Virus genome (UHGV): UHGV-1748743
Strand: one strand, 5' to 3'
DNA length: 10,714 bases
Source of the DNA: a virus
The notes under the pieces: generated by a model
Seen by the model: only the letters and a program-made list of their open reading frames with translations
Databases searched by the model: none
Told to the model about the DNA's origin: nothing
Program-made: the position numbers and the translations under genes
Shown: one piece after another, positions 2-10,714 of the stretch
How positions within the stretch are numbered: the stretch's first letter is position 1
Layout: the number at the start of each line of letters is the position of its first letter

Positions 2-208
2 AAGCTGCCTTCCATGAATGAAGCCGTTAAACAGATTGAGCAGGAAGTGCTTACCACCTGGCCCACAGAGGCAATTTCTCATGCTGAAAACGTGGTGTAC
101 CGGCTGTCCGGTATGTATGAGTTTGTGGTGAATAATGCCCCCGAACAGGCAGAGGACGCCGGGCCTGCAGAGCCTGTTTCTGCGGGAAAGTGTTCGACGG
201 TGAGCTGA
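2..208 (+). CDS. G: Tail assembly chaperone G, C-terminal part (5' end lies upstream of the window)
   Basis: Seen in sequence: the frame of the ATG at 14 stays open back to the window edge (codons 2-13 AAG CTG CCT TCC, no stop), so the Met at 14 is internal. It ends at TGA 206-208, just 3' of the GGGAAAG heptamer. The tail ...NNAPEQAEDAGPAEPVSAGKCSTVS and the position directly upstream of T and H fit lambda gpG (recalled, not aligned). Confidence 0.85.
   Translation, partial: KLPSMNEAVKQIEQEVLTTWPTEAISHAENVVYRLSGMYEFVVNNAPEQAEDAGPAEPVSAGKCSTVS
184..190 (+). other. Programmed -1 ribosomal frameshift slippery heptamer (G GGA AAG) joining G to T
   Basis: Seen in sequence: in the G frame the codons are GCG(182-184) GGA(185-187) AAG(188-190), followed by a stop 5 codons later. 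The -1 frame (GGG AAA GTG...) is open for 144 more codons. Established knowledge: lambda G-T uses exactly this heptamer type. Confidence 0.8.
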
Positions 209-624
209 GTTTTGCCCTGAAACTGGCGCGTGAGATGGGGCGACCCGACTGGCGTGCCATGCTTGCCGGGATGTCATCCACGGAGTATGCCGACTGGCAC
301 CGCTTTTACAGTACCCATTATTTTCATGATGTTCTGCTGGATATGCACTTTTCCGGGCTGACGTACACCGTGCTCAGCCTGTTTTTCAGCGATCCGGATA
401 TGCATCCGCTGGATTTCAGTCTGCTGAACCGGCGCGAGGCTGACGAAGAGCCTGAAGATGATGTGCTGATGCAGAAAGCGGCAGGGCTTGCCGGAGGTGT
501 CCGCTTTGGCCCGGACGGGAATGAAGTTATCCCCGCTTCCCCGGATGTGGCGGACATGACGGAGGATGACGTAATGCTGATGACAGTATCAGAAGGGATC
601 GCAGGAGGAGTCCGGTATGGCTGA
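190..624 (+). CDS. T: T-frame segment of the G-T fusion tail assembly chaperone, expressed only by -1 frameshift from G
   Basis: Seen in sequence: -1 frame relative to G, open from the slippery site to TGA 622-624. There is no ATG or Shine-Dalgarno of its own (the track start at 190 is a GTG read as Val). The stop overlaps the H start (ATGGCTGA). The 435-nt length equals the lambda T segment as I recall it. The acidic tail EDDVLMQKAAGLAGGVRFG... is repeated near the C-terminus. Confidence 0.85.
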   Translation: MFDGELSFALKLAREMGRPDWRAMLAGMSSTEYADWHRFYSTHYFHDVLLDMHFSGLTYTVLSLFFSDPDMHPLDFSLLNRREADEEPEDDVLMQKAAGLAGGVRFGPDGNEVIPASPDVADMTEDDVMLMTVSEGIAGGVRYG

Positions 625-3178
625 ACCGGTAGGCGATCTGGTCGTTGATTTGAGTCTGGATGCGGCCAGATTTGACGAGCAGATGGCCAGAGTCAGGCGT
701 CATTTTTCCGGTACGGAAAGTGATGCGAAAAAAACAGCGGCAGTCGTTGAACAGTCGCTGAGCCGACAGGCGCTGGCTGCACAGAAAGCGGGGATTTCCG
801 TCGGGCAGTATAAAGCCGCCATGCGTATGCTGCCTGCACAGTTCACCGACGTGGCCACGCAGCTTGCAGGCGGGCAAAGTCCGTGGCTGATCCTGCTGCA
901 ACAGGGGGGGCAGGTGAAGGACTCCTTCGGCGGGATGATCCCCATGTTCAGGGGGCTTGCCGGTGCGATCACCCTGCCGATGGTGGGGGCCACCTCGCTG
1001 GCGGTGGCGACCGGTGCGCTGGCGTATGCCTGGTATCAGGGCAACTCAACCCTGTCCGATTTCAACAAAACGCTGGTCCTTTCCGGCAATCAGGCGGGTC
1101 TGACGGCAGATCGTATGCTGGTCCTGTCCAGAGCCGGGCAGGCGGCAGGGCTGACGTTTAACCAGACCAGCGAGTCACTCAGCGCACTGGTTAAGGCGGG
1201 GGTAAGCGGTGAGGCTCAGATTGCGTCCATCAGCCAGAGTGTGGCGCGTTTCTCCTCTGCATCCGGCGTGGAGGTGGACAAGGTCGCTGAAGCCTTCGGG
1301 AAGCTGACCACAGACCCGACGTCGGGGCTGACGGCGATGGCACGCCAGTTCCATAACGTGACGGCGGAGCAGATTGCGTATGTTGCTCAGTTGCAGCGTT
1401 CCGGCGATGAAGCCGGGGCATTGCAGGCGGCGAACGAGGCCGCAACGAAAGGGTTTGATGACCAGACCCGCCGCCTGAAAGAGAACATGGGCACGCTGGA
1501 GACCTGGGCAGACAGGACTGCGCGGGCATTCAAATCCATGTGGGATGCGGTGCTGGATATTGGTCGTCCTGATACCGCGCAGGAGATGCTGATTAAGGCA
1601 GAGGCTGCGTTTAAGAAAGCAGACGACATCTGGAATCTGCGCAAGGATGATTATTTTGTTAACGATGAAGCGCGGGCGCGTTACTGGGATGATCGTGAAA
1701 AGGCCCGTCTTGCGCTTGAAGCCGCCCGAAAGAAGGCTGAACAGCAGAGTCAACAGGACAAAAATGCGCAGCAGCAGAGCGATACCGAAGCGTCACGGCT
1801 GAAATATACCGAAGAGGCGCAGAAGGCTTACGAACGGCTGCAGACGCCGCTGGAGAAATATGCCGCCCGTCAGGAAGAACTGAATAAGGCCCTGAAAGAC
1901 GGAAAAATCCTGCAGGCAGATTACAACACGCTGATGGCGGCAGCGAAAAAGGACTATGAAACGACACTGAAAAAGCCGAAGCAGTCCGGCGTGAAGGTGT
2001 CTGCGGGCGATCGTCAGGAAGACAGTGCTCATGCTGCCCTGCTGACGCTTCAGGCTGAACTCCGGACGCTGGAGAAGCATGCCGGAGCAAATGAGAAAAT
2101 CAGCCAGCAGCGCCGGGATTTGTGGAAGGCGGAGAGTCAGTTCGCGGTACTGGAGGAGGCGGCGCAACGTCGCCAGCTGTCTGTACAGGAGAAATCCCTG
2201 CTGGCGCATAAAGATGAGACGCTGGAGTACAAACGCCAGCTGGCTGCACTTGGCGACAAGGTTACGTATCAGGAGCGCCTGAACGCGCTGGCGCAGCAGG
2301 CGGATAAATTCGCACAGCAGCAACGGGCAAAACGGGCCGCCATTGATGCGAAAAGCCGGGGGCTGACTGACCGGCAGGCAGAACGGGAAGCCACGGAACA
2401 GCGCCTGAAGGAACAGTATGGCGATAATCCGCTGGCGCTGAATAACGTCATGTCAGAGCAGAAAAAGACCTGGGCGGCTGAAGACCAGCTTCGCGGGAAC
2501 TGGATGGCAGGCCTGAAGTCCGGCTGGAGTGAGTGGGAAGAGAGCGCCACGGACAGTATGTCGCAGGTAAAAAGTGCAGCCACGCAGACCTTTGATGGTA
2601 TTGCACAGAATATGGCGGCGATGCTGACCGGCAGTGAGCAGAACTGGCGCAGCTTCACCCGTTCCGTGCTGTCCATGATGACAGAAATTCTGCTTAAGCA
2701 GGCAATGGTGGGGATTGTCGGGAGTATCGGCAGCGCCATTGGCGGGGCTGTTGGTGGCGGCGCATCCGCGTCAGGCGGTACAGCCATTCAGGCCGCTGCG
2801 GCGAAATTCCATTTTGCAACCGGAGGATTTACGGGAACCGGCGGCAAATATGAGCCAGCGGGGATTGTTCACCGTGGTGAATTTGTCTTCACGAAGGAGG
2901 CAACCAGCCGGATTGGCGTGGGGAATCTTTACCGGCTGATGCGCGGCTATGCCACCGGCGGTTATGTCGGTACACCGGGCAGCATGGCAGACAGCCGGTC
3001 GCAGGCGTCCGGGACGTTTGAGCAGAATAACCATGTGGTGATTAACAACGACGGCACGAACGGGCAGATAGGTCCGGCTGCTCTGAAGGCGGTGTATGAC
3101 ATGGCCCGCAAGGGTGCCCGTGATGAAATTCAGACACAGATGCGTGATGGTGGCCTGTTCTCCGGAGGTGGACGATGA
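617..3178 (+). CDS. H: Tail tape measure protein
   Basis: Seen in sequence: 853-codon ORF with GGAGGAG (604-610) 6 nt upstream of ATG 617. It has a long Q/K/E/A/R-rich predicted helical middle (about 1650-2500), a Gly-rich hydrophobic segment GSIGSAIGGAVGGGASASGG, and ends ...GGLFSGGGR. Same length as lambda gpH (recalled) and in the expected position after G/T. Confidence 0.97.
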   Translation: MAEPVGDLVVDLSLDAARFDEQMARVRRHFSGTESDAKKTAAVVEQSLSRQALAAQKAGISVGQYKAAMRMLPAQFTDVATQLAGGQSPWLILLQQGGQVKDSFGGMIPMFRGLAGAITLPMVGATSLAVATGALAYAWYQGNSTLSDFNKTLVLSGNQAGLTADRMLVLSRAGQAAGLTFNQTSESLSALVKAGVSGEAQIASISQSVARFSSASGVEVDKVAEAFGKLTTDPTSGLTAMARQFHNVTAEQIAYVAQLQRSGDEAGALQAANEAATKGFDDQTRRLKENMGTLETWADRTARAFKSMWDAVLDIGRPDTAQEMLIKAEAAFKKADDIWNLRKDDYFVNDEARARYWDDREKARLALEAARKKAEQQSQQDKNAQQQSDTEASRLKYTEEAQKAYERLQTPLEKYAARQEELNKALKDGKILQADYNTLMAAAKKDYETTLKKPKQSGVKVSAGDRQEDSAHAALLTLQAELRTLEKHAGANEKISQQRRDLWKAESQFAVLEEAAQRRQLSVQEKSLLAHKDETLEYKRQLAALGDKVTYQERLNALAQQADKFAQQQRAKRAAIDAKSRGLTDRQAEREATEQRLKEQYGDNPLALNNVMSEQKKTWAAEDQLRGNWMAGLKSGWSEWEESATDSMSQVKSAATQTFDGIAQNMAAMLTGSEQNWRSFTRSVLSMMTEILLKQAMVGIVGSIGSAIGGAVGGGASASGGTAIQAAAAKFHFATGGFTGTGGKYEPAGIVHRGEFVFTKEATSRIGVGNLYRLMRGYATGGYVGTPGSMADSRSQASGTFEQNNHVVINNDGTNGQIGPAALKAVYDMARKGARDEIQTQMRDGGLFSGGGR

Positions 3179-3504
3179 AGACCTTCCGCTGGAAAGTGAA
3201 ACCCGGTATGGATGTGGCTTCGGTCCCTTCTGTAAGAAAGGTGCGCTTTGGTGATGGCTATTCTCAGCGAGCGCCTGCCGGGCTGAATGCCAACCTGAAA
3301 ACGTACAGCGTGACGCTTTCTGTCCCCCGTGAGGAGGCCACGGTACTGGAGTCGTTTCTGGAAGAGCACGGGGGCTGGAAATCCTTTCTGTGGACGCCGC
3401 CTTATGAGTGGCAGCAGATAAAGGTGACCTGCGCAAAATGGTCGTCGCGGGTCAGTATGCTGCGTGTTGAGTTCAGCGCAGAGTTTGAACAGGTGGTGAA
3501 CTGA
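3175..3504 (+). CDS. M: Minor tail (tail tip) protein M
   Basis: Seen in sequence: 109-aa ORF whose ATG overlaps the H stop (ATGA at 3175-3178), with GGAGGTGG at 3162-3169. Size and position match lambda gpM (recalled). Confidence 0.93.
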   Translation: MKTFRWKVKPGMDVASVPSVRKVRFGDGYSQRAPAGLNANLKTYSVTLSVPREEATVLESFLEEHGGWKSFLWTPPYEWQQIKVTCAKWSSRVSMLRVEFSAEFEQVVN

Positions 3505-4202
3505 TGCAGGATATCCGGCAGGAAACACTGAATGAATGCACCCGTGCGGAGCAGTCGGCCAGCGTGGTGCTCTGGGAAATCGACCTGACAGAGGTCGGTG
3601 GAGAACGTTATTTTTTCTGTAATGAGCAGAACGAAAAAGGTGAGCCGGTCACCTGGCAGGGGCGACAGTATCAGCCGTATCCCATTCAGGGGAGCGGTTT
3701 TGAACTGAATGGCAAAGGCACCAGTACGCGCCCCACGCTGACGGTTTCTAACCTGTACGGTATGGTCACCGGGATGGCGGAAGATCTGCAGAGTCTGGTC
3801 GGCGGAACGGTGGTCCGGCGTAAGGTTTACGCCCGTTTTCTGGATGCGGTGAACTTCGTCAACGGAAACAGTTATGCCGATCCGGAGCAGGAGGTGATCA
3901 GCCGCTGGCGCATTGAGCAGTGCAGCGAACTGAGCGCGGTGAGTGCCTCCTTTGTACTGTCCACGCCGACGGAAACGGATGGCGCTGTTTTTCCGGGACG
4001 TATCATGCTGGCCAACACCTGCACCTGGACCTATCGCGGTGACGAGTGCGGTTATAGCGGTCCGGCTGTCGCGGATGAATATGACCAGCCAACGTCCGAT
4101 ATCACGAAGGATAAATGCAGCAAATGCCTGAGCGGTTGTAAGTTCCGCAATAACGTCGGCAACTTTGGCGGCTTCCTTTCCATTAACAAACTTTCGCAGT
4201 AA
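3504..4202 (+). CDS. L: Minor tail (tail tip) protein L, with C-terminal cysteine cluster
   Basis: Seen in sequence: 232-aa ORF whose start overlaps the M stop (TGATG at 3502-3506). Five Cys lie within about 45 residues near the C-terminus (NTCTW, DEC, DKC, SKC, SGC). Established knowledge: lambda gpL is 232 aa and carries an Fe-S cluster. Confidence 0.93.
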   Translation: MQDIRQETLNECTRAEQSASVVLWEIDLTEVGGERYFFCNEQNEKGEPVTWQGRQYQPYPIQGSGFELNGKGTSTRPTLTVSNLYGMVTGMAEDLQSLVGGTVVRRKVYARFLDAVNFVNGNSYADPEQEVISRWRIEQCSELSAVSASFVLSTPTETDGAVFPGRIMLANTCTWTYRGDECGYSGPAVADEYDQPTSDITKDKCSKCLSGCKFRNNVGNFGGFLSINKLSQ

Positions 4203-4206
4203 TCCC

Positions 4207-4950
4207 ATGACACAGACAGAATCAGCGATTCTGGCGCACGCCCGGCGATGTGCGCCAGCGGAGTCGTGCGGCTTCGTGGTAAGCACGCCGGAGGGGGAAA
4301 GATATTTCCCCTGCGTGAATATCTCCGGTGAGCCGGAGGCGTATTTCCGGATGTCGCCGGAGGACTGGCTGCGGGCAGAGATGCAGGGTGAGATTGTGGC
4401 GCTGGTCCACAGCCACCCCGGTGGTCTGCCCTGGCTGAGTGAGGCTGACAGGCGGCTGCAGGTGCAGAGCGATTTGCCGTGGTGGCTGGTCTGCCGGGGT
4501 GAGATTCATAAATTCCGCTGTGTGCCGCATCTTACCGGGCGGTGCTTTGAGCACGGGGTGACGGACTGTTACACGCTGTTCCGGGATGCTTATCATCTGG
4601 CGGGGATTGAGATGCCGGATTTTCATCGCGGGGATGACTGGTGGCGTCACGGTCAGAATCTCTATCTGGATAATCTGGAGGCCACAGGGCTGTATCAGGT
4701 GCCGTTGTCATCAGCACAACCGGGCGATGTGCTGCTGTGCTGTTTTGGTTCATCGGTGCCGAATCATGCCGCCATTTACTGTGGTGATGGCGAGCTGCTG
4801 CACCATATTCCTGAACAACTGAGCAAACGAGAGAGGTATACCGACAAATGGCAGCGACGCACACACTCCCTCTGGCGTCACCGGGCATGGCGCGCATCTG
4901 CCTTTACGGGGATTTACAACGATTTGGCCGCCGCATCGACCTTCGTGTGA
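4207..4950 (+). CDS. K: Tail tip assembly protein K (JAB/MPN-like plus NlpC/P60-like domains)
   Basis: Seen in sequence: the first ATG of the open frame is at 4207, 5 nt after the L stop (the track start at 4165 is a TTG), giving 247 aa. It contains a JAMM-like H-S-H-P-x6-S-x2-D motif (HSHPGGLPWLSEAD) with a candidate catalytic Glu upstream (AESCGFVV), and C-terminal Cys/His candidates of an NlpC/P60 fold (TDCYTLF, PNHAAIY). Lambda K is annotated from the internal ATG at 4351 (199 aa, recalled). Confidence 0.88.
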   Translation: MTQTESAILAHARRCAPAESCGFVVSTPEGERYFPCVNISGEPEAYFRMSPEDWLRAEMQGEIVALVHSHPGGLPWLSEADRRLQVQSDLPWWLVCRGEIHKFRCVPHLTGRCFEHGVTDCYTLFRDAYHLAGIEMPDFHRGDDWWRHGQNLYLDNLEATGLYQVPLSSAQPGDVLLCCFGSSVPNHAAIYCGDGELLHHIPEQLSKRERYTDKWQRRTHSLWRHRAWRASAFTGIYNDLAAASTFV

Positions 4951-5489
4951 AAACGGGGGCTGAAGCCATCCGGGCGCTGGCCACACAGCTCCCGGCGTTT
5001 CGTCAGAAACTGAGCGACGGCTGGTATCAGGTACGGATTGCCGGGCGTGATACAGGTGAAACGGAATTATCAGCCCGTCTTAATGAACCGCTGGCAAATG
5101 GTGCTGTGATCCATATCGTGCCGCGTCTGGCAGGAGCCAAAAGTGGCGGTGTGTTTCAGGCTGTGCTGGGGGCGGCTGTTATGGCGGTTGCTATATGGAT
5201 GCCGGGGGTAGGAATTATGGCGAGTAATCTGCTGTTTTCTCTCGGTGCCAGTATGACGCTTGGCGGTGTTGCACAGATGCTGGCCCCTAAACCCAGACCC
5301 CCCCGCACACAGACAACGGATAACGGCAAACAGAACACCTATTTTTCTTCACTGGATAATATGGTTGCCCAGGGCAATGTTCTGCCCGTTCTGTACGGTG
5401 AAATGCGCGTGGGATCACGTGTGGTATCTCAGGAGATCAGCACAGCAGATGAAGGTGATGGTGGTCAGGTTGTGGTGATTGGTCGCTGA
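4848..5489 (+). CDS. I: Tail tip assembly protein I
   Basis: Seen in sequence: 213-aa ORF starting inside the 3' end of K in a different frame (103-nt overlap). The N-terminal region ends ...IVPRLAGAKSGG and is followed by a hydrophobic Gly/Ala-rich segment; the C-terminus is ...EGDGGQVVVIGR. Position between K and J matches lambda I (recalled as 223 aa). Confidence 0.88.
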   Translation: MAATHTLPLASPGMARICLYGDLQRFGRRIDLRVKTGAEAIRALATQLPAFRQKLSDGWYQVRIAGRDTGETELSARLNEPLANGAVIHIVPRLAGAKSGGVFQAVLGAAVMAVAIWMPGVGIMASNLLFSLGASMTLGGVAQMLAPKPRPPRTQTTDNGKQNTYFSSLDNMVAQGNVLPVLYGEMRVGSRVVSQEISTADEGDGGQVVVIGR

Positions 5490-5507
5490 TGAAAAACGTT
5501 TTATGTG

Positions 5508-5528
5508 AAACCGCCTCCGGGCGGTTTT
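5508..5528 (+). other. Intergenic stem-loop between I and J (8-bp stem AAACCGCC/GGCGGTTT, loop TCCG, short T run)
   Basis: Seen in sequence: a perfect 8-bp inverted repeat followed by TTTTAT, 10 nt before the J Shine-Dalgarno (GGAG 5538-5541). Function is unknown; it could be a weak terminator/attenuator or an mRNA processing/stability element. Confidence 0.4.
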
Positions 5529-5549
5529 ATCGTTTATGGAGCATGACGA

Positions 5550-8500
5550 ATGGGTAAAGGCAGCAGTAAGGGGCATACCCCGCGCGAAGCGAAGGACAAC
5601 CTGAAGTCCACGCAGCTGCTGAGTGTGATCGATGCCATCAGCGAAGGGCCGGTTGAAGGTCCGGTGGATGGATTAAAAAGCGTGCTGCTGAACAGTACGC
5701 CGGTGCTGGACAGTGAGGGGAATACCAATATATCCGGCGTCACGGTGGTGTTCCGGGCCGGTGAGCAGGAGCAGTCACCGCCGGAGGGATTTGAATCCTC
5801 CGGCTCCGAGACGGTGCTGGGTACGGAAGTGAAATATGACACGCCGATCACCCGGACCATCACGTCGGCAAACATCGACCGTCTGCGCTTTACCTTCGGT
5901 GTACAGGCACTGGTGGAAACCACCTCAAAGGGAGACAGGAATCCGTCGGAAGTTCGCCTGCTGGTTCAGATACAGCGTAACGGTGGCTGGGTGACGGAAA
6001 AAGACATCACCATTAAGGGCAAAACCACCTCGCAGTATCTGGCCTCGGTGGTGGTGGATAACCTGCCGCCGCGCCCGTTTAATATCCGGATGCGCAGGAT
6101 GACGCCGGACAGCACCACAGACCAGCTGCTGAACAAAACGCTCTGGTCGTCATACACCGAAATCATCGATGTGAAACAGTGCTACCCGAACACGGCACTG
6201 GTTGGCGTGCAGGTGGACTCGGAGCAGTTCGGCAGCCAGCAGGTGAGCCGTAATTATCATCTTCGCGGGCGCATTCTGCAGGTGCCGTCGAACTATAACC
6301 CGCAGACGCGGCAATACAGCGGTATCTGGGACGGAACGTTAAAACCGGCATACAGCAACAACATGGCCTGGTGTCTGTGGGATATGCTGACCCATCCGCG
6401 CTACGGCATGGGGAAACGTCTTGGTGCGGCGGATGTGGACAAATGGGCGCTGTATGTCATCGGCCAGTACTGCGACCAGTCGGTGCCGGACGGCTTTGGC
6501 GGCACGGAGCCGCGCATTACCTGTAATGCGTACCTGACCACACAGCGCAAGGCGTGGGATGTGCTCAGTGATTTCTGCTCGGCGATGCGCTGTATGCCGG
6601 TATGGAACGGGCAGACGCTGACGTTCGTGCAGGACCGACCATCAGATAAGGTGTGGACCTATAACCGCAGTAATGTGGTGATGCCGGATGATGGCGCGCC
6701 GTTCCGCTACAGCTTCAGCGCCCTGAAGGACCGCCATAATGCCGTTGAGGTGAACTGGATTGACCCGGATAACGGCTGGGAGACGGCGACAGAGCTCGTG
6801 GAGGATACGCAGGCCATTGCCCGTTACGGCCGTAACGTCACGAAGATGGATGCCTTTGGCTGTACCAGCCGGGGGCAGGCACACCGCGCCGGGCTGTGGC
6901 TGATTAAAACGGAGCTGCTGGAAACGCAGACCGTGGACTTCAGCGTGGGTGCTGAAGGGCTTCGCCATGTACCGGGGGATGTCATTGAAATCTGCGATGA
7001 TGACTATGCCGGTATCAGCACCGGTGGTCGTGTGCTGGCGGTGAACAGCCAGACCCGGACGCTGACGCTCGACCGTGAAATCACGCTGCCATCCTCCGGT
7101 ACCACGCTGATAAGCCTGGTTGACGGAAGTGGCAATCCGGTCAGCGTGGAGGTTCAGTCCGTCACCGACGGCGTGAAGGTGAAAGTGAGCCGTGTTCCTG
7201 ACGGTGTTGCTGAATACAGCGTATGGGGGCTGAAGCTGCCGACGCTGCGCCAGCGCCTGTTCCGCTGCGTGAGTATCCGTGAGAACGATGACGGCACGTA
7301 TGCCATCACCGCCGTGCAGCATGTACCGGAAAAAGAGGCCATCGTGGATAACGGGGCGCACTTTGACGGCGACCAGAGCGGCACGGTGAATGGTGTCACG
7401 CCGCCCGCGGTGCAGCACCTGACCGCAGAAGTCACCGCAGACAGCGGGGAATATCAGGTGCTGGCGCGATGGGACACACCGAAGGTGGTGAAGGGGGTGA
7501 GCTTTATGCTTCGCCTGACCGTGGCAGCGGATGACGGCAGTGAGCGGCTGGTCAGCACAGCCCGGACGGCGGAAACCACATACCGCTTCACACAACTGGC
7601 GCTGGGGAACTACAGGCTGACAGTCCGGGCAGTAAATGCGTGGGGGCAGCAGGGGGATCCGGCGTCGGTATCGTTCCGGATTGCCGCACCGGCAGCGCCA
7701 TCGCGGATTGAGCTGACGCCGGGCTATTTTCAGATAACCGCAACGCCGCATCTTGCCGTTTATGATCCGACGGTACAGTTTGAGTTCTGGTTCTCGGAAA
7801 AGCGGATTGCGGATATCAGGCAGGTTGAAACCAGCGCGCGTTATCTTGGTACGGCGCTGTACTGGATAGCCGCCAGTATCAATATCAAACCGGGCCATGA
7901 TTATTATTTTTACATTCGCAGTGTGAACACCGTTGGCAAATCGGCATTTGTGGAGGCTGTTGGCCAGCCGAGTGATGATGCATCCGGCTATCTGGATTTT
8001 TTCAAAGGAGAGATAGGGAAAACCCATCTGGCTCAGGAGCTGTGGACGCAGATTGATAACGGTCAGCTTGCGCCGGACCTGGCTGAAATCAGGACGTCCA
8101 TTACGGATGTCAGCAATGAAATCACGCAGACCGTCAATAAGAAACTGGAAGACCAGAGTGCAGCGATCCAGCAGATACAGAAGGTTCAGGTTGATACAAA
8201 TAATAACCTGAACAGCATGTGGGCCGTGAAACTGCAGCAGATGCAGGACGGACGCCTTTATATTGCGGGTATCGGTGCCGGTATTGAGAATACGCCAGCA
8301 GGAATGCAGAGTCAGGTGCTGCTGGCGGCGGACAGGATTGCGATGATTAATCCTGCGAATGGCAATACAAAGCCGATGTTTGTTGGGCAGGGCGATCAGA
8401 TATTCATGAACGAAGTGTTCCTGAAATATCTGACGGCTCCCACCATTACCAGCGGTGGCAATCCCCCAACGTTTTCACTGACACCTGATGGTCGACTTTC

Positions 8501-9032
8501 TGCGAGAAATGCGGATATCAGCGGTAACGTGAATGCGAACTCCGGGACGCTCAATAATGTCACGATTAACCAGAACTGTCGGATTCTGGGAAAACTGTCA
8601 GCTAACCAGATTGAAGGTGATATTGTCAAAACGGTGGGAAAAGCCTTTCCGAGAAATGGCAGTTATGCCAGCGGTACAATAACGGTCACTGTGTACGATG
8701 ACCAGGCTTTTGACCGTCAGATAGTCGTCCCCCCCGTTCTGTTTCGCGGTGGTAAGCATGAAAACTTCAACAGCAACAACCAACAGTCATACTGGTATTC
8801 AACCTGTAAGCTGCAGGTGCTGAAGAACGGACAGGAAATCTTTCAGCAACCCGCGACGGATGTCAGCAGGGTATTTTCATCAGTCATTGATATGCCTGCC
8901 GGACACGGCCATGTCACCCTGACTTTCAATGTTTCTTCATATGGTGCAAATAACTGGACGCCAACGACCAGTATCAGCGACCTTCTTGTTGTCGTGATGA
9001 AGAAATCAACAGCCGGCATCAGTATCAGTTGA
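5550..9032 (+). CDS. J: Central tail fibre / host specificity protein J
   Basis: Seen in sequence: 1160-aa ORF with GGAG 9 nt upstream. The N-terminus is [21 protein letters not shown]..., the central region is FN3-like (about 7380-7750), and the C-terminal region carries the putative receptor-binding domain. Follows I as in lambda (gpJ recalled as 1132 aa). Confidence 0.97.
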
Positions 9033-9051
9033 ATTTTAAAACCCAAATTCG

Positions 9052-9079
9052 GGCACCAGAAATGGTGCCTTTTTTATTT
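9052..9079 (+). terminator. Rho-independent terminator downstream of J
   Basis: Seen in sequence: a perfect 7-bp stem GGCACCA (9052-9058) / TGGTGCC (9063-9069) with a GAAA loop, followed by TTTTTTATTT (9070-9079), 20 nt after the J stop. Confidence 0.6.
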
Positions 9080-9090
9080 GTGGAGTGAAT

Positions 9091-10714
9091 ATGGCAGTAC
9101 AGATTTCAGGTGTGCTGAAAGACGGTGCAGGAAAACCGATACAGAACTGCACCATTCAGCTCAAAGCAAAACGTAACAGCACCACAGTTGTGGTGAACAC
9201 GGTGGCCTCAGAAAATCCGGATGAAGCCGGACGTTACAGCATGGATGTTGAGCATGGTCAGTACAGCGTCACCCTGCTGGTTGAAGGTTTTCCGCCTTCA
9301 CATGCCGGGACCATTACCGTCTATGAAGGTTCCAGACCAGGTACGCTGAATGATTTTCTCGGTGCCATGACGGAGGATGATGTACGACCGGAGGCACTGC
9401 GCCGCTTTGAGCAGATGGTAGAAGAGGTGTCACGTAACGCCTCCGCGGTTGCACAGAATACGGCAGCCGCGAAAAAATCAGCCAGCGATGCCAGTGCATC
9501 AGCCAGCGAGGCGGCAACTCATGCAACCGATGCTGCAGCCTCATCACGTGCCGCCAGCACGTCAGCCGGACAGGCCGCGTCGTCGGCTCAGTCAGCGTCT
9601 TCCAGCGCAGGAACGGCATCGACAAAGGCCCGTGAAGCAGCAAAAAGTGCTGCTGCTGCAGAGTCATCAAAAAGCGCGGCAGCTACCAGTGCCGCTGCGG
9701 CGAAAACGTCAGAAACGAATGCCGCAGCATCACAAAAATCGGCAGCCACTTCTGCATCCACAGCGACCACGAAGGCGTCAGAAGCTGCCACCTCGGCACG
9801 GGGTGCGGCGGCCTCAAAAGAGGCAGCGAAATCTTCAGAAACGAATGCATCATCAAGTGCCAGTAGTGCAGCTTCCTCGGCAACGGCGGCAGGAAATTCC
9901 GCGAAGGCGGCAAAGACGTCTGAGACAAACGCCAGGTCTTCTGAAACGGCAGCGGGACAGAGCGCCTCAGCTGCGGCAGGTTCAAAAACAGCGGCTGCAT
10001 TATCTGCCAGTGCCGCGTCAACAAGTGCCGGGCAGGCCTCAGCCAGTGCCACCGCCGCCGGAAAATCGGCAGAAAGCGCCGCATCATCCGCTTCAACAGC
10101 CACAACGAAGGCTGGCAAAGCCACTGAGCAAGCCACTGCAGCAGCGAGGTCTGCTTCTGCAGCAAAAACCTCTGAAACAAATGCAAAGACTTCAGCAGAC
10201 AATGCTGCTTCCTCTAAGGCGGCAGCCGCATCGTCAGCCAGTTCAGCGGCGTCATCGGCATCATCTGCGTCTGCTTCAAAAGATGAGGCGACCAGACAGG
10301 CGTCAGCAGCAAAGGGCAGCGCCACGACGGCATCCACGAAGGCGACAGAGGCAGCTGGCAGTGCGACGGCGGCAGCTCAGAGCAAAAGTACGGCGGAATC
10401 CGCGGCAACGCGCGCCGAGACAGCGGCAAAACGGGCAGAGGATATTGCATCCGCCGTGGCGCTTGAGGATGCGAGCACGACGAAAAAGGGGATAGTACAG
10501 CTCAGCAGTGCGACCAACAGCACTTCCGAGTCACTGGCGGCAACGCCAAAAGCGGTTAAGGCGGTAATGGGTGAAACGAACAAGAAAGCGCCCTTAAATA
10601 GTCCTGCACTGACCGGAACGCCAACAACACCAACTGCGCGACAGGGAACGAATAATACCCAAATCGCAAGCACGGCTTATGTTATGGCTGCGATCGCTGC
10701 CCTCGTGGACTCGT
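9091..10714 (+). CDS. stf: Side tail fibre protein, N-terminal 541 codons (3' end lies beyond the window)
   Basis: Seen in sequence: ATG 9091 with GGAG at 9082-9085; the frame is open to the window end (I translated it by hand; it is missing from the track only because it has no stop in the window). The N-terminus MAVQISGVLKDGAGKPIQNCTIQLKAKRNSTTVVVNT... resembles lambda Stf (recalled). A long Ala/Ser/Thr-rich heptad shaft follows, then the motif KKGIVQLSSATNSTSESLAATPKAVKAVM at 10483-10569. Confidence 0.9.
   Translation, partial: MAVQISGVLKDGAGKPIQNCTIQLKAKRNSTTVVVNTVASENPDEAGRYSMDVEHGQYSVTLLVEGFPPSHAGTITVYEGSRPGTLNDFLGAMTEDDVRPEALRRFEQMVEEVSRNASAVAQNTAAAKKSASDASASASEAATHATDAAASSRAASTSAGQAASSAQSASSSAGTASTKAREAAKSAAAAESSKSAAATSAAAAKTSETNAAASQKSAATSASTATTKASEAATSARGAAASKEAAKSSETNASSSASSAASSATAAGNSAKAAKTSETNARSSETAAGQSASAAAGSKTAAALSASAASTSAGQASASATAAGKSAESAASSASTATTKAGKATEQATAAARSASAAKTSETNAKTSADNAASSKAAAASSASSAASSASSASASKDEATRQASAAKGSATTASTKATEAAGSATAAAQSKSTAESAATRAETAAKRAEDIASAVALEDASTTKKGIVQLSSATNSTSESLAATPKAVKAVMGETNKKAPLNSPALTGTPTTPTARQGTNNTQIASTAYVMAAIAALVDS
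9472..10458 (+). repeat. In-frame 21-nt (heptad) periodic repeat region encoding the Ala/Ser-rich fibre shaft within stf
   Basis: Seen in sequence: residues about 128-456 align in about 47 consecutive 7-residue rows with consensus x-[ST]-S-A-x-x-A (Ala nearly invariant at position 7, Ser at position 3). The motif K-[TS]-S-E-T-N-A starts at 9703, 9829, 9913 and 10165, with spacings of 126, 84 and 252 nt, all multiples of 21. Confidence 0.8.

What the first reader, a model, noticed from the sequence alone, without database searches (positions are those of the whole stretch)
4207..5489. K/I pair: JAB/MPN plus NlpC/P60 protease-like K overlapping a ubiquitin-like I with an internal GG
K carries a complete JAMM-type metal-binding motif (HSHPGGLPWLSEAD) and an upstream Glu (AESCGF) that exists only if translation starts at ATG 4207 rather than at the internal ATG used in the classic lambda annotation (4351; recalled). 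It also has NlpC/P60-like Cys/His candidates. The overlapping downstream gene I encodes a compact N-terminal domain ending in ...AGAKSGG, directly followed by a hydrophobic Gly/Ala-rich segment. This is the arrangement proposed from comparative genomics for a ubiquitin-like protein processed by a cognate JAB peptidase during tail-tip assembly. I here is about 10 aa shorter than I recall for lambda, so its central segment appears variable.
Basis: partly seen in the sequence, partly recalled or inferred. Interest (0 to 1): 0.45.

Follow-up and report, generated by a model that had tools for sequence, protein, structure and literature searches.

The report
Lambda tail genes K and I
These are the well-known tail-tip assembly genes K (a two-domain peptidase) and I (a ubiquitin-like domain fused to the tail plug) of a lambda-like phage; the domain reading is correct but was published in 2006, and the full-length K is already the standard gene call.

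Summary
Window 4207-4950 encodes a 247-aa K protein. It has a complete JAMM/JAB domain (E19, H68-x-H70, S78, D81) and an NlpC/P60 domain (C121, H187, H199). Window 4848-5489 encodes I: a ubiquitin-like N-domain, an invariant G-[S/A]-K-x-[G/A]-G tail, a hydrophobic segment, and the C-terminal plug seen in lambda tail-tip structures.

The window is about 96-97% identical to lambda, 21, 434 and mEp332. The long K is the real gene. Homologs at 31-59% identity align from about residue 4-10, and substitutions in 4207-4350 favour the third codon position as in the rest of K.

Lambda's classic 199-aa K traces to one G missing from the reference NC_001416. Five other lambda-type records carry that G, as do at least 120 IMG/VR contigs. 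None has the reference allele.

The K-processes-I idea was published by Iyer, Burroughs and Aravind (2006) and is still unproven. Indirect support exists: K is absent from virions, only the post-Ubl part of I is seen by cryo-EM, and a 2026 preprint shows by mass spectrometry that the F-pyocin I homolog loses its N-domain, protease unidentified.

The exact scissile bond is open (after G101, or at G96-A97). Verdict: already known, low interest.

The parts
4200..4209 (+). End of L and start of K: L stop TAA (4200-4202), 4-nt spacer TCCC, K start ATG (4207-4209). No Shine-Dalgarno sequence, so translation is probably coupled to L.
   Evidence: In distant phages the annotated K start overlaps or abuts the L stop, e.g. 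by 4 nt in Serratia Rovert, Rhizobium Y2_11 and U136B.
4207..4950 (+). [quoted passage not shown]
   Evidence: The AlphaFold2 model has pLDDT 97.2 and pTM 0.91.
4213..4521 (+). JAB/MPN+ (JAMM) metallopeptidase domain, aa 3-105.
   Evidence: Pfam PF14464, 52.7 bits. PDB 2KKS matches at E=2.6e-6 over aa 7-109. Foldseek finds P. furiosus JAMM1 (5LD9/5LDA, TM 0.66-0.69), CSN5, AMSH and Rpn11.
4261..4263 (+). Codon for E19, the JAMM general-base glutamate, within AESCGF. It is encoded only by the long form.
   Evidence: Conserved in at least 90% of 96 homologs and in all 12 phage K sequences compared, including this window.
4335..4353 (+). GGAGG (4335-4339), then G4341, which is the base missing from NC_001416, then the internal ATG 4351 (M49). 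ATG 4351 is the classic 199-aa lambda K start.
4408..4449 (+). JAMM motif HSHPGGLPWLSEAD: zinc ligands H68, H70 and D81, plus S78.
   Evidence: H68, H70 and D81 are invariant, and S78 is conserved in at least 90%.
4546..4878 (+). NlpC/P60 (C40) papain-like domain, aa 114-224. Catalytic codons: C121 at 4567-4569, H187 at 4765-4767, H199 at 4801-4803.
   Evidence: Pfam PF00877, 46.7 bits. Conservation. Foldseek finds MepS/Spr, LytE and C. difficile autolysins.
4848..4950 (+). K/I overlap of 103 nt, with I in the -1 frame relative to K. The evolutionary constraint appears to switch from the K frame to the I frame at about 4887.
   Evidence: Distant phages have annotated K-I overlaps of only 8-23 nt, or gaps of 1 to 563 nt.
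4848..5489 (+). Gene I, 213 aa from ATG 4848. The alternative start ATG 4887 gives the 200-aa form that many NCBI records use.
4887..5150 (+). Ubiquitin-like (ThiS/MoaD/SAMP-type beta-grasp) N-domain of I, aa 14-101.
   Evidence: Pfam PF06805. The model shows beta-beta-alpha-alpha-beta-alpha-beta with pLDDT 56-72. Top Foldseek matches are SAMP1, MoaD and Urm1.
5133..5150 (+). Tail motif G96-A-K98-S-G-G101, the candidate processing site. G96, K98 and G101 are invariant.
   Evidence: (65 homologs).
5151..5285 (+). Hydrophobic Gly/Ala-rich segment, aa 102-146. Two helices are predicted. Its length varies: it is 10 aa shorter here than in lambda.
   Evidence: The lambda literature calls these helices H1/H2 and predicts them to be transmembrane (PMC11101478).
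5220..5486 (+). C-terminal plug domain, aa 125-213, equivalent to lambda gpI 135-223. It sits as a trimer in the tail-tip lumen.
   Evidence: PDB 8IYK, 9E7M. PMC10721106.

Best explanation
This is the K-I gene pair of a lambda-type tail operon (H-M-L-K-I-J-stf).

K is made as a 247-aa protein from ATG 4207, probably by translational coupling to L. It carries a catalytically complete JAMM/JAB zinc peptidase domain and a catalytically complete NlpC/P60 cysteine peptidase domain. It acts during tail-tip assembly and does not stay in the virion.

I is made as a precursor with three parts: an N-terminal ubiquitin-like domain, two hydrophobic helices, and a C-terminal plug.

Most likely mechanism:
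1. The ubiquitin-like domain keeps the hydrophobic part of I soluble or shielded while I joins J and L.
2. K's JAB domain then binds the ubiquitin-like domain and cuts at its conserved glycine tail (G96-A97 or after G101).
3. The mature hydrophobic-plus-plug fragment stays in the tip lumen and holds the C-terminus of the tape measure protein.

Shown here: the gene extents, the domain architecture, the conservation of catalytic residues, and the conserved tail motif.

Shown in the literature: K is absent from virions, only the post-Ubl part of I is seen in lambda tips, and the F-pyocin I homolog loses its N-domain on maturation.

Inferred: K's JAB domain is the protease, where the bond is cut, and what the NlpC/P60 domain does.
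For: Identity and synteny:
- The region is 95-97% identical to mEp332, 21, 434 and lambda, with the gene order M, L, K, I, J.

K architecture:
- Pfam JAB plus NlpC/P60.
- In 96 homologs at 31-59% identity, H68, H70 and D81 are invariant. E19, S78, C121, H187 and H199/H200 are conserved in at least 90%.
- All of these residues are intact in all 12 phage K sequences compared, except one H199Q.
- The model has pLDDT 97.2. Residues 1-48 supply helix 3-15 and strands 21-27 and 30-36 of the MPN core.
- Fold matches include JAMM1 in complex with SAMP2, CSN5, AMSH and Rpn11, plus MepS and LytE.
- There is a sub-threshold hit to the NCBIfam 'desampylase' family.

Long K is real:
- 247-aa clusters with thousands of members.
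- 1718 of 1748 phage records cover at least 80% of the 247-aa query by tblastn.
- Distant homologs align from residue 4-10.
- Variable sites in 4207-4350 fall 12/7/29 by codon position, against 49/25/100 in the rest of K.

I:
- Pfam Lambda_tail_I.
- Ubiquitin-like fold matches.
- P92, G96, K98, G101 and G108 are invariant in 65 homologs.

Literature:
- The hypothesis itself (PMC1779556).
- gpK was not detected in virions, and gpI was modelled from residue 135 (PMC10721106), 134 (PMC12617516) or 101 (PMC11101478).
- The single gpI peptide in virion mass spectrometry (9.87% coverage) fits only the C-terminal 22-mer.
- In F-pyocin, the N-region of PA0640 is present in stalled precursor tips and absent from mature particles. 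The K homolog PA0639 is essential for tips and absent from particles.
Against: - No experiment links K's JAB activity to cleavage of I. The F-pyocin preprint says the cleavage mechanism is unknown. It also reports that PA0640 expressed alone in E. coli loses its N-region to unknown host proteases.
- Authors of the lambda structures treat the N-domain as unresolved rather than removed.
- The I model has low confidence (mean pLDDT 47.9).
- The ubiquitin-like fold matches are weak: best E=2.7e-3 and none at or below 1e-3.
- Sequence-profile and hhalign comparisons to MoaD and the PDB are not significant.
- The ES18 I homolog keeps the G-A step but lacks the K-x-G-G stretch. The 'GG' is therefore not universal.
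Confidence: 0.6

Rival explanations
1. The N-domain of I is removed, but not by K. A host protease or the intrinsic instability of the linker does it. K's JAB domain acts on another substrate or serves only as a binding or chaperone module for the ubiquitin-like domain.
For: PA0640 expressed alone in E. coli loses its N-region to unknown host proteases. No direct K-I cleavage data were found in the literature searches.
Against: All JAMM catalytic residues are retained across homologs at 31-59% identity. A pure binding module would not need that. JAB-containing K and Ubl-containing I sit next to each other in every phage locus where an I homolog lay in the fetched stretch (none in Vibrio pVa-3). 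G96, K98 and G101 in the I tail are invariant.
Confidence: 0.2
2. In lambda-type phages I is not cleaved at all. The ubiquitin-like domain stays attached and is simply disordered, so it is invisible to cryo-EM.
For: Lambda structure papers describe an 'unresolved' N-terminal domain, and one speculates that it has a role during infection. Virion mass spectrometry found only one gpI peptide, so absence of N-terminal peptides is weak evidence.
Against: In the homologous F-pyocin, mass spectrometry finds the N-region in stalled precursor tips but not in mature particles. Three ubiquitin-like domains of about 100 aa would have to fit in or thread out of a closed tip lumen. The one lambda peptide detected is C-terminal, although the N-domain offers several good tryptic peptides.
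Confidence: 0.1
3. The 199-aa protein from ATG 4351 is a real, functional product made by internal initiation downstream of GGAGG. It would be made alone or alongside the long form, and its JAB half would be vestigial.
For: GGAGG lies 11 nt upstream of ATG 4351. ATG 4207 has no Shine-Dalgarno sequence. Several lambda records annotate 199 aa.
Against: The 199-aa call traces to a single G missing from NC_001416. Five other lambda-type records and at least 120 viral contigs carry that G. M49 is not conserved in the family, whose consensus there is Ile. The short form lacks E19 and three core secondary-structure elements. Region 4207-4350 evolves as coding sequence.
Confidence: 0.05
4. K's main role is as a peptidoglycan hydrolase used at infection, as proposed for the NlpC/P60-only protein g14 of the Rhodobacter gene transfer agent.
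For: The NlpC/P60 fold and triad are intact. RcGTA g14 degrades peptidoglycan and is needed for tail formation (PMC7296036).
Against: gpK is not found in lambda virions by mass spectrometry or cryo-EM. Lambda virions are reported to lack such an enzyme. PA0639 is absent from mature F-pyocin.
Confidence: 0.05

Closest known systems
Bacteriophage lambda gpK and gpI (tail tip assembly proteins K and I), with their orthologs in phages 21, 434 and mEp332
   Same: The DNA is 95-97% identical and the gene order is L-K-I-J. K is 247 aa, with the same 103-nt K/I overlap. The I N-domain and plug are nearly identical to lambda's.
   Different: I is 213 aa rather than 223 aa, because its hydrophobic central segment is diverged and shorter. 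The lambda reference record NC_001416 lacks one G and so annotates a 199-aa K.
The TAPK/TAPI system predicted by Iyer, Burroughs and Aravind 2006 (JAB + NlpC/P60 peptidase with a ThiS/MoaD-like ubiquitin-like tail assembly protein I)
   Same: The architecture and gene neighbourhood are exactly the same: a conserved C-terminal glycine on the ubiquitin-like domain, and a Gly-rich linker leading to a C-terminal domain.
   Different: Nothing differs in kind. This analysis adds that two glycines (G96 and G101) are invariant, so the scissile bond is ambiguous.
Archaeal JAMM desampylases with SAMP ubiquitin-like proteins (P. furiosus JAMM1-SAMP2, PDB 5LDA; Haloferax HvJAMM1)
   Same: These are the best structural matches for the K JAB domain (TM 0.66-0.69, rmsd 2.5 A) and for the I N-domain (SAMP1 4HRO, TM 0.68). 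They are minimal single-domain JAMM enzymes that cut at the glycine tail of a ubiquitin-like protein.
   Different: The window contains no E1-type activating enzyme and no conjugation step. The ubiquitin-like domain is translationally fused to its 'substrate'. The NCBIfam desampylase score is far below its cutoff (29 against 130 bits).
Pseudomonas aeruginosa F-pyocin PA0639 (K homolog) and PA0640 (I homolog, tip plug)
   Same: PA0640 has the same ubiquitin-like N-domain, ending in GSKQSG. Only its C-terminal part is visible in the structure. Its N-region is removed on maturation. PA0639 is essential for tips and absent from particles.
   Different: It is a tailocin rather than a phage. The preprint does not connect the cleavage to a JAB domain in PA0639.
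Rhodobacter capsulatus GTA g14 and the TIGR02219 phage NlpC/P60 family
   Same: The NlpC/P60 domain is related (weak hit), and the protein is needed for tail formation.
   Different: g14 is about 150 aa. Neither the paper passages nor its size suggests a second domain, but its sequence was not examined here. It is proposed to be carried in the particle and to degrade peptidoglycan.

Membership tests
JAB/MPN+ (JAMM) metallopeptidases, Pfam PF14464 Prok-JAB | Profile match above the curated threshold across the whole domain | tested here: met
   The long K scores 52.7 bits against a cutoff of 25 and covers profile 3-113 of 114. The short form scores 23.8 bits, below the cutoff.
JAB/MPN+ (JAMM) metallopeptidases, Pfam PF14464 Prok-JAB | Complete E-x(n)-H-x-H-x7-S-x2-D catalytic motif | tested here: met
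   E19, H68, H70, S78 and D81 are present and conserved across 96 homologs.
JAB/MPN+ (JAMM) metallopeptidases, Pfam PF14464 Prok-JAB | MPN fold | tested here: met
   The model has pLDDT 97.2. Foldseek matches JAMM1, CSN5, AMSH, Rpn11 and 2KKS at E of 5e-5 to 8e-4.
JAB/MPN+ (JAMM) metallopeptidases, Pfam PF14464 Prok-JAB | Zinc-dependent cleavage after the C-terminal glycine of a ubiquitin-like protein | not testable with these tools
   This needs biochemistry. No published assay for gpK was found.
NlpC/P60 (MEROPS C40), Pfam PF00877 | Profile match above the threshold, and a papain-like fold | tested here: met
   46.7 bits against a cutoff of 23. Foldseek matches MepS/Spr, LytE, Acd autolysins and 4HPE.
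NlpC/P60 (MEROPS C40), Pfam PF00877 | Cys-His-His/polar catalytic triad | tested here: met
   C121, H187 and H199/H200 are conserved in at least 90%, with one H199Q among the 12 phage K sequences compared.
NlpC/P60 (MEROPS C40), Pfam PF00877 | Demonstrated substrate (peptidoglycan stem peptide or protein) | not testable with these tools
   The substrate of the K NlpC/P60 domain is unknown.
Lambda tail assembly protein I, Pfam PF06805 (TAPI) | Profile match above the threshold, and a position between K and J | tested here: met
   86.7 bits against a cutoff of 23.8, over aa 14-97. Synteny. 364 bits to PDB 8IYK chain I.
ThiS/MoaD/SAMP/Urm1-type ubiquitin-like beta-grasp domains | Beta-grasp fold | tested here: inconclusive
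   The model is of low to moderate confidence (pLDDT 56-72 in aa 11-90). The 16 best Foldseek matches are nevertheless all ubiquitin-like proteins (SAMP1, MoaD, Urm1, SUMO) with TM up to 0.70, but E is only 3e-3 to 6e-2. Sequence profile and hhalign comparisons are not significant.
ThiS/MoaD/SAMP/Urm1-type ubiquitin-like beta-grasp domains | Conserved C-terminal glycine tail | tested here: met
   G96 and G101 are found in 65 of 65 homologs. G100 is Gly in 39 and Ala in 23 of 65.
Ubiquitin-like conjugation systems (E1/E2-dependent) | An adjacent E1-like adenylating enzyme | tested here: not met
   The window holds only tail genes: G/T, H, M, L, K, I, J and stf. This pair is a fused precursor plus a peptidase, not a conjugation system.

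The most novel reading that the evidence does not exclude
K could be the single missing protease behind both unexplained cleavages of lambda-type tail assembly. Its JAB domain would remove the ubiquitin-like domain of I, at G96-A97 rather than after the 'GG'. This would be the 'proteolytic checkpoint' just described for F-pyocin. [quoted passage not shown]
Probability: 0.1. Interest if true: 0.6.

Novelty: already known. Interest (0 to 1): 0.22.

Why it matters
The K-I pair is a textbook-phage example of a ubiquitin-like domain working with a JAMM peptidase without any conjugation machinery. Whether K really cleaves I has been open since 2006.

The question has become more pointed now that cryo-EM shows only the post-Ubl part of I in tail tips. 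A 2026 preprint also reports an unexplained 'proteolytic checkpoint' on the F-pyocin I homolog.

There is a practical point too. The lambda reference record carries a truncated K because one base is missing. Anyone designing K constructs or mutants from NC_001416 would omit the catalytic glutamate and the first 48 residues of the JAB domain. Nothing in this window itself is new.

Tried and rejected
1. Programmed -1 frameshift fusing K to I. No X XXY YYZ heptamer exists in the K frame over the overlap. Database K-I fusion proteins join at many different positions (K205 to K247 joined to I4 to I42) and are clusters of 1-4 sequences. They are therefore artefacts or pseudogenes.

2. The search for related loci with the diverse K alignment failed because no stretch was conserved enough. 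I used tblastn against phage records instead.

I spent the third homolog search to obtain admissible diverse I sequences. The model was still of low confidence.

4. The sequence-level link from the I N-domain to ThiS/MoaD was not significant. The profile against PDB gave only I homologs.

5. Literature on the K start or a reference-sequence erratum: Casjens & Hendrix 2015 and Liu et al. 2013 (lambda ribosome profiling) are not held. Keyword searches found nothing. I therefore cannot say whether the missing G has been noted in print.

6. The GenBank note on the phage 434 K start is truncated in the tool output.

7. The I-J intergenic hairpin, annotated as a terminator in phages 21 and 434, is not called by the consensus scan.
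Full report
**What the window is.** The 10.7-kb window is the distal tail operon of a lambda-type phage.
- It holds the end of G with the G/T slippery site, then T (190-624) and H (617-3178, 853 aa).
- Next come M (3175-3504), L (3504-4202), K (4207-4950), I (4848-5489) and J (5550-9032, 1160 aa).
- An stf-like side-fibre gene follows and runs off the window end.
- Region 3400-5700 is 97.4% identical to phage mEp332.
- The same region is about 96.5% identical to lambda, 21 and 434 over 92% of its length. The unmatched 8% is the central part of I.

**Observation check.**
- K from ATG 4207 is 247 aa.
- HSHPGGLPWLSEAD (aa 68-81, nt 4408-4449) fits the JAMM pattern H-x-H-x7-S-x2-D.
- The glutamate in AESCGF is E19 (nt 4261-4263), upstream of the internal ATG 4351 (M49).
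- ATG 4351 aligns with the K start annotated in NC_001416.
- I from ATG 4848 is 213 aa. AGAKSGG is aa 95-101 and a hydrophobic Gly/Ala-rich stretch follows.
- Lambda I is 223 aa, and the 10-aa difference lies in that hydrophobic stretch.
- These matches are not chance: the long K scores Prok-JAB E=4.7e-14 and NLPC_P60 E=3.4e-12, and I scores Lambda_tail_I E=1.4e-24.

**The K start, and why lambda says 199 aa.** Public records annotate at least four K lengths:
- 199 aa in NC_001416, DE3, HK630 and lambda imm21;
- 211 aa in KT232076;
- 233 aa in mEp332;
- 247 aa in phages 21 and 434.

An alignment shows that NC_001416 lacks one G (GGAGGC-TATTTC, window position 4341). That puts the upstream ATG out of frame. 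Five other lambda-type records all carry the G and have an intact 247-aa ORF. They are KT232076, Lambda_AGU LC730321 (48,503 bp), lambda imm21, DE3 and HK630.

In IMG/VR the allele with the G occurs in at least 120 contigs, and the reference allele occurs in none. The classic short K is therefore most likely an artefact of a one-base omission in the 1982 sequence. A strain-specific mutation cannot be fully excluded.

mEp332 has a different one-base deletion in the G5 run at about 4293-4297, which explains its odd start.

Independent evidence that the long form is the gene:
- Clusters of 247-aa proteins hold thousands of members, named 'C40 family peptidase' or 'phage tail protein'.
- There are 2774 representative homologs. 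The distant ones (35-50% identity, 230-260 aa) align from query residue 4-10.
- tblastn, which ignores annotation, finds 1748 phage records, and 1718 of them cover at least 80% of the 247 aa.
- Among 99 distinct close relatives, variable sites in 4207-4350 fall 12/7/29 by codon position. The rest of K gives 49/25/100.
- ATG 4207 lies 4 nt after the L stop and has no Shine-Dalgarno sequence. In distant phages the K start abuts or overlaps the L stop, which points to conserved translational coupling.

**K domains.**
- Across 96 homologs at 31-59% identity, H68, H70 and D81 are invariant.
- E19, S78, C121, H187 and H199/H200 are conserved in at least 90%.
- All of these residues are intact in the 12 phage K sequences compared (this window plus 11 named phages), bar one H199Q.
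- The AlphaFold2 model is very confident (pLDDT 97.2, pTM 0.91). Helix 3-15 and strands 21-27 and 30-36 lie in the first 48 residues. A protein starting at M49 would lack part of the MPN core as well as the catalytic Glu.
- Foldseek against the PDB splits between two groups. One is JAMM enzymes that act on ubiquitin-like proteins: P. furiosus JAMM1 alone and bound to SAMP2 (TM 0.66-0.69), CSN5, AMSH and Rpn11. The other is NlpC/P60 hydrolases: MepS/Spr, LytE and C. difficile autolysins.
- By sequence, the only solved relative is 2KKS (E=2.6e-6, aa 7-109), so no K structure has been solved.

**I domains.**
- Pfam Lambda_tail_I covers aa 14-97.
- The C-terminal part is the plug seen in lambda tail-tip structures 8IYK, 8K35, 8XCG and 9E7M.
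- My AlphaFold2 model of I is poor overall (pLDDT 47.9). Region 15-92 has pLDDT 56-72 and a beta-beta-alpha-alpha-beta-alpha-beta order.
- Its 16 best PDB matches are all ubiquitin-like proteins. They are led by SAMP1 (TM 0.68), MoaD (0.70), another SAMP and Urm1, but E is only 3e-3 to 6e-2.
- Sequence-profile and hhalign tests against the PDB and MoaD are not significant.
- I therefore rate the beta-grasp assignment as likely but not firmly shown here. It agrees with the PSI-BLAST result of Iyer et al..

**The junction.** In 65 I homologs (29-97% identity), P92, G96, K98, G101 and G108 are invariant.
- Position 97 is Ser or Ala.
- Position 100 is Gly in 39 and Ala in 23.
- Q104 is present in 61 of 65.

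The 'GG' is thus really G-[S/A]-K-x-[G/A]-G. A weak, non-significant local match to MoaD's last strand and tail (PLTDGDEVAFFPPVTG against PLANGAVIHIVPRLAG) puts G96 at MoaD's penultimate Gly, so A97 would correspond to the last one. ES18 keeps P-V-V-E-G-A but lacks the K-x-G-G stretch. One lambda paper says gpI is resolved from residue 101. The scissile bond could therefore be at G96-A97 or A97-K98, rather than after G101. This remains open.

**K/I overlap and the I start.**
- The 103-nt overlap was seen only in the lambda group: 9 of the 10 distant phages fetched have an annotated I homolog, lying from a 23-nt overlap to a 563-nt gap after K.
- Distant K homologs end at about residue 226-231 of this K, and conserved I begins at residue 14.
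- Variable sites in 4848-4886 follow the K frame (4/2/6). Those in 4887-4950 follow the I frame (8/3/11, against 3/11/8 in the K frame).
- Many NCBI-source proteins use the 200-aa I that starts at ATG 4887.
- I therefore think ATG 4887 is at least as likely as 4848. The counts are small, and 4848 has the better upstream GAGAGG.
- There is no slippery heptamer, and K-I fusion proteins in the databases join at scattered positions. Programmed frameshifting is rejected.

**What is already published.**
- Iyer, Burroughs and Aravind (2006) described TAPI as a ThiS/MoaD-like ubiquitin-like domain with a conserved C-terminal glycine. They described TAPK as JAB plus NlpC/P60, and proposed that the JAB domain releases the ubiquitin-like domain at that glycine.
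- Lambda cryo-EM and mass spectrometry did not find gpK in virions. They modelled gpI only from residue 135, 134 or 101.
- The virion mass spectrometry lists one gpI peptide at 9.87% coverage. That figure fits only the C-terminal 22-mer, residues 202-223.
- A 2026 bioRxiv preprint on F-pyocin shows by mass spectrometry that the N-region of PA0640 is present in stalled precursor tips and absent from mature particles. PA0640 is an I homolog with the same Ubl domain.
- The same preprint shows that the K homolog PA0639 is essential for tips and absent from particles. It states that the cleavage mechanism is unknown.

**Mechanism and rivals.**
- Best explanation (about 0.6): K is a non-structural, two-headed peptidase. 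Its JAB domain removes the ubiquitin-like domain from the I precursor during tip maturation, leaving the hydrophobic-plus-plug fragment in the lumen.
- Removal by another protease: about 0.2.
- No cleavage in lambda: about 0.1.
- A functional short K: about 0.05.
- K as an infection-stage muralytic enzyme like RcGTA g14: about 0.05.
- The role of the NlpC/P60 domain is unknown. A speculative option is the unexplained gpH to gpH* cleavage.

**Novelty.** The finding is correct but already known. The families are in Pfam, the hypothesis dates from 2006, and the 247-aa K is the prevailing database gene call.

By-products of this check:
- the one-base omission in NC_001416;
- the two invariant glycines;
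- the likely ATG 4887 start of I.

Interest is low (0.22).

Noticed in passing
window 4341 (equivalent to about NC_001416 14266): The lambda reference record NC_001416 lacks one G here (GGAGGC-TATTTC). That breaks the 247-aa K ORF and produces the classic 199-aa annotation. Five other lambda-type records and at least 120 IMG/VR contigs carry the G, and none has the reference allele. I could not find out whether this has been noted in print.
   Followed up: yes
window 4293-4297; L001 (mEp332): mEp332, the closest relative, has a 1-nt deletion in the GGGGG run. Its K is therefore annotated from a different start (233 aa). This is either a homopolymer sequencing error or a real frameshift.
   Followed up: partly
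window 4848-4950: The start of I is ambiguous. Public records use ATG 4848 (213 aa) or ATG 4887 (200 aa). Codon-position patterns of variable sites switch from the K frame to the I frame at about 4887, and Pfam and PHROG profiles begin at residue 12-14. The counts are small (12 and 22 sites).
   Followed up: partly
window 4848-4950 compared with L130-L140: The 103-nt K/I overlap was seen only in the lambda group. In 9 distant phages with an annotated I homolog, the K-I spacing runs from a 23-nt overlap to a 563-nt gap. Lambda-type K has about 20 extra C-terminal residues (a predicted helix at 230-243) overprinted on the I start.
   Followed up: partly
L130 (phage ES18) about 2180-2651: ES18 gp28, the I homolog, is annotated as only 115 aa. 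The same frame upstream encodes a ubiquitin-like-looking domain. Its junction is VPVVEGA followed directly by the hydrophobic segment, so the K-x-G-G stretch is missing.
   Followed up: partly
window 9033-10714: There is no lom gene between J and the side-fibre gene. An stf-like ORF starts at about 9091 (MAVQISGVLKDG...) and stays open through the Ala/Ser-rich repeat region to the window end. ORFs 9449-10495 (+) and 9588-10337 (-) are alternative-frame artefacts of that repeat region.
   Followed up: partly
window 5550-9032: J is 1160 aa, against 1132 aa in lambda. The C-terminal receptor-binding end looks different, so the receptor specificity may differ.
   Followed up: no
window 184-208: The G/T -1 frameshift site GGGAAAG (184-190) lies just before the G stop codon (206-208). 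The T frame stays open to 624.
   Followed up: no
window about 5505-5535: There is a hairpin AAACCGCC-TCCG-GGCGGTTT followed by TATCGTTT between I and J. It is annotated as a terminator in the phage 21 and 434 records, but the consensus terminator scan did not call it.
   Followed up: partly
proteins P0015, P0031, P0085, P0114, P0069, P0093, P0106; PHROG 28576 and 35166: K-I fusion proteins exist in the databases and even form PHROG families. Their K-to-I junctions are scattered, so they look like frameshift errors or pseudogenes rather than a designed fusion.
   Followed up: yes
window about 2690-3178 (C-terminal region of H): The glycine-rich C-terminal part of the tape measure protein is where lambda gpH is cut to gpH*. 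The literature read here says the protease is unknown. K, with two intact peptidase domains, is an untested candidate.
   Followed up: no
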